A stretch of 63,992 nt of DNA, counting the filler, from Platydemus manokwari (taxonomy: Eukaryota): NCBI GenBank assembly GCA_037951405.1. It is 6 parts of 6 records of this genome, joined end to end, with 100 filler letters (N's around TTAATTAATTAA, not from the genome) between each part and the next. Parts side by side here need not be neighbours in the genome. Positions count along the whole stretch, not along the records: positions 41,248 to 53,392 come from JBBMOY010287781.1; 5 more parts are not named here. One strand, written 5' to 3'. The notes below the pieces were generated by a model. The model was not told the origin of the DNA, ran no database searches, and saw only the letters and a list, made by a program, of their open reading frames with translations. The translations under genes and the position numbers were made by a program. This document shows, in pieces, positions 50,054 through 51,765 of the stretch (positions are counted from its first letter, which is position 1; each line of letters begins with the position of its first letter).

Positions 50054-51765
50054 TTAAAAGTCAATAGCTGTTAGCAATATATAATATTAAAATTTAGTAA
50101 GTTATTGATTAAAAATTTCTGAATACAAGTCATGCAAGAACTATATTATATTTATAAAATTAAAAGTTTCTTAAAGCATTTCAAAGAATTTACAAATATT
50201 AAACGTTCTAATATTATTTTATATTATTTTATATCATTTCGGTTTCATTCGCTTTTAGTGATAATTCGAAATAATAATGAATAAAAATAAAAATAACTCA
50301 AGTAAATAATGATAATAAACCAAAAAATAACAATCAATAATTACCATTTATATCAATGTTGTATTTCTCAACTTGGTTGTCATTACAGATACTCTCATCA
50401 CAATATTTGATCAAATCAATTTCAGTGGGAATTTCAACATTTTGCTTGATTGCGCATGACTTGTTAACCATGTAAATGTTTTCTGCCTTTCTCCATTTTG
50501 AAGATGTAACGCACATTGTACAATTTCCTTCGTATGTAATTTGTGTATATTGGCTGGTACAATTATTACACACCATGCAATTAATTTGTTTATATTTCCA
50601 TGGTCCTGACATTTCAGTGTAGTTTAACATAAATCGGTTAAATTATATTTTACTTTTCAAAATATTTTTCGTTTTATCATTACAAAAATTATGTTGACAG
50701 CATTGCCAGCCTTTTATACATATTTGTGAACATAATTTGGTGATTGAAGATAAATTAACTGGTGAAGTTACACAAAATGTGCAATTAACATAGATTTCAA
50801 TATTCTGATTTTCTTCCTCACAGTTCTGACAGACTTGACAATGGATCGGTTTTGTTTTCATGCTTTCGGACTTGTTTCCTATATTTATTTGGAAATGAAA
50901 CAATTTAATTTTTAATATAGTTTGTATATCTTGAAAAACAATTTAAAAGCACAAAATCTTGATGAATGTATTAGATAGAATTGAAATCTTACTTTTTGGT
51001 GATATTAGCCCTGGTCCGTTACACATATTAAAATTACAGAAAAGGTTTTTTTGGTCTCTAACAATGAAAAGACCTGTTTCAGTTTTGCATTTCATTGAGG
51101 TAACTAAAATACCAGGTCTAGTCCAGACGATTTCACAGTAAGTACATTTGTGACTTGTATCGTAATTGGTATCATTACCATTACAATTTGTGCATGTTTG
51201 GCATGATATTCCATTTTTGTTTACCAATACTTAAATATATTATTTCAAATATATATTTTAAAAAATAAAATAATTTTTGTTCCTAGAAATTAAGTCAATG
51301 GTAAATTAATATTTTTCATAAAAACATTCTCTTTAATATTATATCTAAATTTCTTAAAACAAAATCAAAATGAATAATTAAATTCTCACTCATATCTTTT
51401 GGATTTTTAGAAATTTCTTCATTACAAAAATCCTTATTGTTACAAAGTATAATTATATCGGTATCTATAAGTATTACAGGTGGAGATTGGTCCCAACATT
51501 CCTGTTTGATACGTAATGTTTTAGAATGTGGAAACGTGAATAATAAAGAATGACAATAAATACAATTTTGAACCAGATTTTTTTTAGAATTTTTTATCTT
51601 GCAATTTTTACAAGTATGGCATTTGATAGCATCATTTGGATAAAAATCTATTTTGATAAAATTACATGAATTAATCAATAGAGTAAAATGGAATATTACT
51701 AAATAAAAATCAAATCACTAACTTGTGAAATACAGAAGTGATACCAAAATGTATGCGGAAATCAT
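50054..51765 (-). CDS. Secreted protein with four tandem three-finger (Ly6/uPAR, CD59-like) domains; exons 51765-51723, 51647-51390, 51229-50993, 50878-50654, 50605-50345, 50067-50054 (~345 aa)
   Basis: Signal-peptide exon MISAYILVSLLYFT. Each of the next four exons encodes CxxCxNC...CxxC...C...C-x(4-5)-CN. All introns are GT-AG and phase 1; exon lengths 258, 237, 225 and 261 nt are multiples of 3. The last exon is tentative (alternative stop at 50334). Confidence 0.85.

What the first reader, a model, noticed from the sequence alone, without database searches (positions are those of the whole stretch)
50054..51765. One signal-peptide exon feeding four divergent three-finger-like domain exons, all symmetric phase 1
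Seen in sequence: the four separate Cys-rich ORFs in the track are exons of one gene. A 43-nt leader exon precedes four cassettes of 258, 237, 225 and 261 nt, each holding one complete domain with phase-1 junctions on both sides. Any cassette could be skipped or joined directly to the leader without a frameshift. Domains 1, 2 and 4 have 8 Cys and domain 3 has 10, and the inter-Cys loops are almost unrelated. No in-frame hydrophobic GPI signal follows. Established knowledge: most Ly6/CD59-like proteins are single-domain and GPI-anchored, uPAR has three domains, and secreted 8-Cys forms include toxins and pheromones. Inference: this is a secreted multivalent or splice-combinatorial three-finger effector (mucus, prey capture, defence or mating). 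The Lys-rich linkers (SKNPK, SPKR, KTK..LKR) could allow release of single domains.
Basis: partly seen in the sequence, partly recalled or inferred. Interest (0 to 1): 0.72.

Follow-up and report, generated by a model that had tools for sequence, protein, structure and literature searches.

The report
Four-domain three-finger gene, expanded family
An intact animal gene, likely from a flatworm, strings a signal-peptide-like exon to four cysteine-rich exons that are predicted to make one secreted four-part three-finger protein from a fast-changing, many-copy family; the mix-and-match splicing proposed for it is possible but untested.

Summary
The five coding exons are as described: 43 + 258/237/225/261 nt, GT-AG, all phase 1. 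The sixth (50054-50067) is unsupported and lies in a dispersed repeat.

All four domains share Cys spacing 2-2-12-2 and end in Cys-Asn, the pattern published for flatworm Ly6/CD59-like domains. The link to Ly6/uPAR (LU) proteins runs through one homologue and is sub-threshold; our own structure models were too poor to judge.

The 8-Cys domains (1, 2, 4) lack Cys7/Cys8, as in multi-domain uPAR and Sm29, not the 2-3 pair lost in short snake toxins. This favours one chain whose domains pack together over released or single spliced domains.

A DNA-type run holds many diverged copies (65 of 157 contigs under 90% alike). Among 38 exon substitutions, 28 change a residue and none hits a cysteine or makes a stop. 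A decayed tandem copy lies upstream.

Phase-1 symmetry is normal for LU genes, and long exons between short introns disfavour skipping.

Verdict: a probably secreted four-LU protein of an expanded family, a new variant of a known kind. Variety more likely comes from gene copies than from splicing.

The parts
51723..51765 (-). Exon 1: ATG and hydrophobic core of a predicted signal peptide; phase-1 donor GTTAGT
   Evidence: best 10-residue hydropathy 2.35; same donor hexamer used by a neighbouring gene
51390..51647 (-). Exon 2: end of signal peptide and LU-like domain 1, 8 Cys (spacing 2,2,12,2,18,17,5), lacks Cys7/Cys8
   Evidence: ends shared by many contigs of run X1, middle covered by one contig
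50993..51229 (-). Exon 3: LU-like domain 2, 8 Cys (2,2,12,2,15,16,4), lacks Cys7/Cys8
50654..50878 (-). Exon 4: LU-like domain 3, full 10 Cys (2,2,12,2,13,3,5,0,4); alternative in-frame acceptor at 50929
   Evidence: 33% identical to P0001 over 79 aa
50345..50605 (-). Exon 5: LU-like domain 4, 8 Cys (2,2,12,2,18,17,4), lacks Cys7/Cys8
   Evidence: a gap-free copy with 42 differences over 281 nt spans 50329-50609 in run X1
50334..50344 (-). Read-through end of exon 5 (three residues and a stop), the simplest 3' end; alternatively the start of a fifth intron
   Evidence: indels in related contigs begin at 50329 and below; weak
50054..50067 (-).
49857..50116 (.). Dispersed non-coding repeat, second copy at 44079-44363 (69% identity with indels)
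52895..53320 (-). Decayed tandem copy of the upstream region, leader exon and domain-1 exon, with stops and frame shifts
   Evidence: 60-66% nucleotide identity, collinear, E 2e-9 and 2e-6; tblastn E 5.5e-4

Best explanation
The five exons are predicted to be spliced into one message for a likely secreted, glycosylated chain of about 345 residues with four flatworm-type Ly6/uPAR (three-finger) domains, which would pack against each other into one binding surface, with variety likely supplied by many diverged gene copies rather than by exon skipping. Shown: exon frame, cysteine pattern, absence of Cys7/Cys8 in domains 1, 2 and 4, many diverged copies in a DNA-type run, and a decayed neighbour copy. 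Inferred: three-finger fold, secretion without a GPI anchor, constitutive splicing and inter-domain packing (by analogy with uPAR and Sm29). Also inferred, and weakest: a role as a surface or mucus recognition/defence protein whose variable fingers bind outside targets.
For: Near-unique in-frame splice solution, and no signal-peptide-like start in introns 2-4. Cys2-x2-Cys3 and Cys4-x2-Cys5 in 4 of 4 domains, the signature reported for Platyhelminthes three-finger domains (PMC3812095); Cys-Asn ending in 4 of 4. The window-only profile finds 1 protein in 1.84 billion (P0001, E 8e-5), 33% identical to D3 along the domain. P0001 gives Pfam UPAR_LY6 E 0.03 and Toxin_TOLIP E 0.046, and Atlas structure neighbours of TM 0.60-0.69 that are LU-type in 10 of 10 rows, the first a mostly flatworm cluster. 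With P0001 added, 10 of 17 PDB rows are LU proteins, best E 0.0012 over profile positions 6-73. Cys7/Cys8 are missing in D1, D2 and D4, as in domain 1 of SmLy6D/Sm29 and uPAR (PMC4492491; PMC6600238). Run X1: 157 contigs laid, 65 under 90% alike, up to 14 contigs with another letter at one place; 0 of 12 listed indel rows (16 in all) shift an exon frame. Of 38 exon substitutions, 28 are non-synonymous, 10 synonymous, and 0 hit a Cys or make a stop (expected 15%, P about 0.002).
Against: No Pfam LU family for any of the 4 window domains at E<=1. The window-only profile gives 0 LU rows of 5 in PDB, so the LU link depends on P0001 and stays under thresholds; the Atlas feature score of 0.87 is a lead only. 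The 3' end is not fixed, so a membrane anchor is not excluded (two tails with hydropathy about 1.6-1.7). Substitutions show no excess over neutrality (synonymous share 0.26 against 0.18 expected, p 0.2), so positive selection is not shown, and only 40 of 252 difference rows were visible. In the cases read, the missing 7-8 bond is mostly in the N-terminal domain; here D4 lacks it too, so the packing analogy is stretched. The phylum rests on the motif alone. Function is inferred by analogy only.
Confidence: 0.6

Rival explanations
1. Splice-combinatorial cassette gene: exon skipping or mutually exclusive use gives proteins with different domain sets.
For: All four exons are 3n long and phase 1-1, homologous and tandem. 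One contig joins 50885 (intron 3) to 51370 (intron 2), 87 letters on its short side, which fits D1 followed by D3 being a viable layout in some copy, although the letters between are not known.
Against: Phase-1 flanks are general for LU genes (PMC6600238). Exons of 225-261 nt between introns of 48-160 nt are the reverse of skipping-prone architecture (PMC6142364), and introns of 41 and 50 nt occur in a neighbour gene, so 48 nt is no steric block. Leader joined to D1, D2 or D4 alone would give a single domain without the 7-8 bond, reported unstable in other LU proteins.
Confidence: 0.12
2. Polyprotein precursor: the chain is cut at basic linkers into single toxin- or pheromone-like domains.
Against: No dibasic site at D1/D2 and no R-x-x-R. 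The D2/D3 site is lost with the alternative acceptor. One contig has a 3-nt insertion at the D3 exon end that would part Lys from Arg (one contig). The domains keep the 2-3 pair that short toxins lose.
Confidence: 0.13
3. Membrane-anchored multi-LU surface protein like Sm29 or uPAR, with the anchor coming from an unrecognised last exon or from read-through of intron 3 after D2.
For: All 11 SmLy6 and all 20 FgLy6 proteins have predicted GPI sites. Read-through after D2 gives a 16-residue tail with hydropathy 1.71 over its last 14 residues, reached by 15 of 670 donor-like sites in the window (15 of 180 with tails of similar length); that form would be signal + two domains + anchor, as in Sm29.
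Against: Four donors were looked at, so one such tail is not far from chance in AT-rich DNA. After D4 the hydrophobic candidates end in polar residues or lie in the repeat behind a poor acceptor, and repeat and transposon-like DNA follows.
Confidence: 0.12
4. Not three-finger: the CxxC pairs bind zinc or form another small disulfide fold.
For: The window-only profile ranks ribosomal S27, RING and DnaJ zinc motifs in PDB (E 0.05-3.5); Pfam gives weak zinc-finger rows for D1.
Against: Those matches are weak and driven by CxxC pairs. Signal-peptide-like leader, 7 N-glycosylation sequons, even Cys counts, CC-x4-CN in D3 and the full-length link to P0001 fit LU.
Confidence: 0.03

Closest known systems
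SmLy6D / Sm29 of Schistosoma mansoni (PMC4492491; passages read)
   Same: Tandem LU domains behind one signal peptide; first domain lacks Cys7/Cys8; belongs to a recently duplicated, fast-diverging family
   Different: Two domains and a GPI site there; four domains here, three of them without Cys7/Cys8 including the last, and no clear anchor
Flatworm Ly6/CD59-like proteins, SmCD59/SmLy6 and FgLy6 (PMC3812095, PMC8763315; passages read)
   Same: Exactly two residues between Cys2/Cys3 and Cys4/Cys5; C1-x2-C2 start and Cys-Asn end
   Different: Those are mostly single-domain, 10-Cys and GPI-anchored
uPAR, C4.4A, Haldisin, and Drosophila multi-LU proteins (PMC6600238; passages and section 3 part 1 read)
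   Same: LU-only repeats with phase-1 flanks; loss of the 7-8 bond tied to multi-domain context; Drosophila has 2-44-domain proteins, two with the same loss
   Different: GPI-anchored; the generic LU gene uses two exons per domain, while here each domain is one exon
Short-chain snake three-finger toxins (PMC6600238 section 3.1)
   Same: Secreted, 8 Cys, multi-copy family with fixed cysteines and variable loops
   Different: Single-domain and lack the 2-3 bond; these domains keep 2-3 and lack 7-8
P0001, unnamed protein from a 530-nt contig
   Same: Spacing 2,2,12,2, full 10 Cys, 33% identical to D3
   Different: One domain on a short fragment; its gene structure and organism are unknown

Membership tests
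Ly6/uPAR (LU) domain | 60-110 residues with eight or ten conserved cysteines (PMC4492491) | tested here: met
   74-86 residues per exon; 8, 8, 10, 8 Cys
Ly6/uPAR (LU) domain | N-terminal C1-x2-C2 and C-terminal Cys-Asn, Asn not in a sequon | tested here: met
   4 of 4 domains
Ly6/uPAR (LU) domain | Match to LU profiles | tested here: inconclusive
   None for window domains at E<=1; P0001 E 0.03 and 0.046, under cut-offs; PDB best E 0.0012 with P0001 in the profile, no LU row without it
Ly6/uPAR (LU) domain | Three-finger fold | tested here: inconclusive
   Own D3 models pLDDT 58 and 52, too poor to judge; the Atlas model of homologue P0001 (pLDDT 0.60) matches LU clusters at TM 0.60-0.69
Ly6/uPAR (LU) domain | Disulfides 1-5, 2-3, 4-6, 7-8, 9-10 | not testable with these tools
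   Cys numbering is inferred from alignment A2
Ly6/uPAR (LU) domain | Signal peptide | tested here: inconclusive
   Hydrophobic N-terminus, hydropathy 2.35; no signal-peptide predictor on hand
Flatworm SmLy6/FgLy6 | Two residues between Cys2/Cys3 and Cys4/Cys5 | tested here: met
   4 of 4; feature from PMC3812095
Flatworm SmLy6/FgLy6 | Ten cysteines per domain | tested here: not met
   Only D3 has ten; SmLy6D domain 1 is a known exception. Not filed as a member
Flatworm SmLy6/FgLy6 | C-terminal GPI signal | tested here: inconclusive
   No convincing tail among 10 scored after D4; last exon unknown
uPAR-like multi-LU proteins | Tandem LU-only domains with the 7-8 bond missing in the N-terminal domain | tested here: met
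   (also missing in D2 and D4)
uPAR-like multi-LU proteins | Domains assemble into one binding site | not testable with these tools
   Inference from PMC6600238
uPAR-like multi-LU proteins | Two exons per domain, intron at the tip of loop 2 | tested here: not met
   One exon per domain. Works-like comparison only, not membership
Short-chain three-finger toxins | Loss of the 2-3 bond, single domain | tested here: not met
   Cys2 and Cys3 kept in 4 of 4 domains; four domains in one frame

The most novel reading that the evidence does not exclude
An invertebrate, probably a flatworm, has built a variable repertoire of secreted three-finger effectors from one-exon-one-domain cassettes that are duplicated, dropped and recombined between gene copies (and perhaps by splicing). 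Cysteine frames stay fixed, fingers are hypervariable, and the 7-8 bond is given up in most domains. This would be an independent three-finger radiation for defence, prey handling or recognition, and a natural test of whether loss of the 7-8 bond requires multi-domain assembly.
Probability: 0.2. Interest if true: 0.72.

Novelty: new variant of a known kind. Interest (0 to 1): 0.42.

Why it matters
Multi-LU proteins are known, and so is the loss of the 7-8 bond in them, but the examples read here are GPI-anchored and mostly lose it in the first domain only. A probably secreted four-domain form with the bond missing in three domains, one exon per domain, in an expanded family, is a new combination as far as eight paper searches show. 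The supplement listing LU proteins of five flatworm genomes (PMC13719153) could not be read and may hold such forms. If confirmed, it gives a natural test of the idea that 7-8 loss goes with inter-domain assembly. It also points to a family that Pfam misses and that may act at the animal's surface.

Tried and rejected
No RNA holder listed; this says nothing on expression. The one run (X1) behaves as DNA: contigs cross introns and no listed joint has splice-site ends, so splicing could not be tested. No whole genome is held, so paralogues could not be read in full.

AlphaFold2 on D3 with 4 or 5 aligned sequences gave pLDDT 58 and 52, with a helix where a strand is expected. D3 alone against PDB gave 3 unrelated rows. 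The word-index search with A2 found only P0001 among 93 candidates and none among 1306 longer proteins (weak evidence). The metagenome scan with D4 gave 37 pattern matches and no relative. A search with another exon of the window for a taxon clue found nothing. The Atlas could not take window sequences.

Rejected: four separate genes (no signal-peptide start in introns 2-4); the 74-aa hydrophobic ORF at 49846-50070 as an anchor exon (needs a weak phase-0 donor, lies in the repeat, and the other copy has indels). Summed depth in run X1 was not used as a copy number. The joint 50885/51370 is kept only as a hint, because the letters between are not known. Four non-exon rows were dropped before the 38-site substitution count. 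Earlier scan notes concern other genes and changed nothing.

Full report
Setting. The window is AT-rich animal DNA (about 25% GC). It is made of contigs joined by spacers of 44 N, 12 fixed letters and 44 N at five places. The gene lies on the piece 41248-53392, and genes beyond it need not be linked. No whole genome is held.

Observation. On the minus strand five exons of 43, 258, 237, 225 and 261 nt are separated by GT-AG introns of 75, 160, 114 and 48 nt, all phase 1, and give one open frame with 34 cysteines. Listing every in-frame donor/acceptor pair between domains leaves one choice at three junctions and three at D2/D3. The five-cysteine motif occurs four times in the window, only here, and in 0 of 30 shuffles. 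A neighbouring gene has introns of 41 and 50 nt by my reading, one with the same donor hexamer as exon 1, so these introns look ordinary for this genome. Read-through gives a stop at 50334. No further domain follows; repeat DNA and a gag-like decayed stretch (judged by eye) lie downstream. Ten candidate tails were scored and none is a convincing GPI signal, but the 3' end is open.

What the domains are. All four have spacing 2,2,12,2 for the first five cysteines and end in Cys-Asn. PMC3812095 (passages) reports that flatworm three-finger domains differ from mammalian CD59 by exactly two residues between Cys2/Cys3 and Cys4/Cys5. Pfam finds no LU family for the window domains, and PMC8763315 (passages) notes that domain searches miss fluke Ly6 proteins. 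A profile of the four domains finds one protein in 1.84 billion, P0001 (E 8e-5), a 10-Cys domain 33% identical to D3. P0001 has sub-threshold Pfam LU matches. Its Atlas feature neighbours are led by LU clusters (best 0.87, a lead only), and its structure neighbours score TM 0.60-0.69, the first a mostly flatworm LU cluster. With P0001 in the profile, 10 of 17 PDB rows are LU proteins (best E 0.0012); without it, 0 of 5. Our own models were too poor to judge. LU identity is therefore likely but not proven, and the flatworm origin is inferred from the motif only.

Which cysteines are missing. Alignment A2 shows that D1, D2 and D4 keep Cys1-6, 9 and 10 and lack Cys7 and Cys8, while D3 has all ten. 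PMC6600238 (passages and section 3 part 1) states that short-chain toxins lose the 2-3 bond. It also states that loss of 7-8 is very rare and found in multi-LU proteins (uPAR, C4.4A, Haldisin, two Drosophila proteins), and that single domains without it aggregate. PMC4492491 (passages) reports the same loss in domain 1 of the two-domain SmLy6D/Sm29. So the 8-Cys pattern ties this gene to multi-domain proteins, not to toxins, and argues against single domains being released or spliced out alone. It differs in that three of four domains, including the last, lack the pair, each domain is one exon rather than two, and no anchor is evident.

A family. The one run holding this DNA behaves as DNA. 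At 82% likeness 157 contigs lie on 50200-51800: 37 at 99% or more, 16 at 95-99, 39 at 90-95 and 65 under 90. Up to 14 contigs carry another letter at one place. Other organisms in the run are not excluded, and depth is no copy number. The two ends of D1 are shared by many contigs while its middle is covered by one. Of 12 listed indel rows (16 in all), 9 are outside the coding exons and 3 keep the frame. Of 42 listed substitutions (40 of 252 rows, 2), 4 non-exon rows were dropped. Of the other 38, 28 change a residue and 10 do not, and none touches a cysteine or makes a stop, against 15% expected (P about 0.002). The synonymous share does not differ from the neutral expectation (p 0.2), so fast change is seen but positive selection is not shown. 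One contig joins intron 3 to intron 2 across D2, and another matches only the D4 exon. Both fit copies with other domain sets, but the letters between are not known. A decayed tandem copy of the leader and D1 lies at 52895-53320.

Splicing and cleavage. Frame-safe skipping is arithmetic: symmetric phase-1 flanks are general for LU genes. Skipping goes with short exons and long introns (PMC6142364, passages), the reverse of this gene. Retaining an intron would end the protein after 24, 16, 3 or 3 residues behind D1, D2, D3 or D4. The tail after D2 is hydrophobic (15 of 670 donor-like sites do as well), which could give an Sm29-like anchored two-domain form, but that is near chance with four donors looked at. 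Lys-Arg occurs at two junctions, one conditional on the acceptor; there is none at D1/D2 and no R-x-x-R.

Mechanism. Most likely (0.6) the message is spliced in full and the chain enters the secretory route, forms 17 disulfides, is glycosylated (7 sequons) and is released as one four-domain protein. Its sheets would pack into a composite binding face, the variable fingers setting specificity, with gene birth and decay supplying variety. Exon frame, cysteine pattern and multiple copies are shown. Fold, secretion, packing and a surface or mucus recognition/defence role are inferred. Rivals: polyprotein (0.13), splice-combinatorial (0.12), anchored form (0.12), other fold (0.03).

Novelty. LU-only multi-domain proteins are standard across animals (PMC13719153, parts 1-3 of 4 read; supplement unreadable). 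Searches (listings, plus the passages named) showed no secreted four-LU flatworm family with this pattern, and the library misses many journals. PMC11484910 (passages) only confirmed tissue-specific fluke Ly6 expression. The scan has no look-alike note. Verdict: new variant of a known kind, interest 0.42.

Noticed in passing
window 56714-57830, minus strand: Arginine-methyltransferase-like gene (PRMT_C E 1e-8, PrmA E 9e-8) whose exons are clearly richer in GC than the rest (bin 38% against about 25%). It could be a transfer, a contaminant or a mis-join. It lies on another contig piece than the finding.
   Followed up: partly
window 44655-45500, minus strand: Gene with a galactose-binding F5/8-like part (weak, E 0.011) followed by a PAN/apple-like part (by eye), with introns of 41 and 50 nt. 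It lies upstream of the second copy of the same dispersed repeat as the three-finger gene.
   Followed up: partly
window 54082-55425, plus strand: TRAF-like gene pieces: weak zf-TRAF (E 0.14) and MATH (E 0.004).
   Followed up: no
window 52533-52811, minus strand: 92-codon ORF ending in CC-x5-C just behind the decayed copy; it may be a further decayed domain exon, but no significant match was found.
   Followed up: partly
window about 49250-49750 and 43320-43550, minus strand: Decayed gag-like stretch with a zinc-knuckle-like remnant, and a reverse-transcriptase-like remnant; both by eye, no Pfam match for the latter.
   Followed up: no
window 10188-11117, plus strand: Single-exon rhodopsin-like receptor ORF, 7tm_1 E 0.002.
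   Followed up: no
window 9974, 20218, 29620, 41148, 53393: Five identical N-flanked 12-letter spacers: assembly joins, so pieces on either side need not be neighbours.
   Followed up: yes
window 22743-24268, 27899-28097; 2212-2564 with 33317-33669; 13808-14406 with 15848-16248: Several dispersed or inverted repeat families at 70-85% identity.
   Followed up: no
window 4025-4348 and 63257-63547, plus strand: Dpy-30-motif exon (E 7e-6) and ankyrin-repeat exon (E 1e-12).
   Followed up: no
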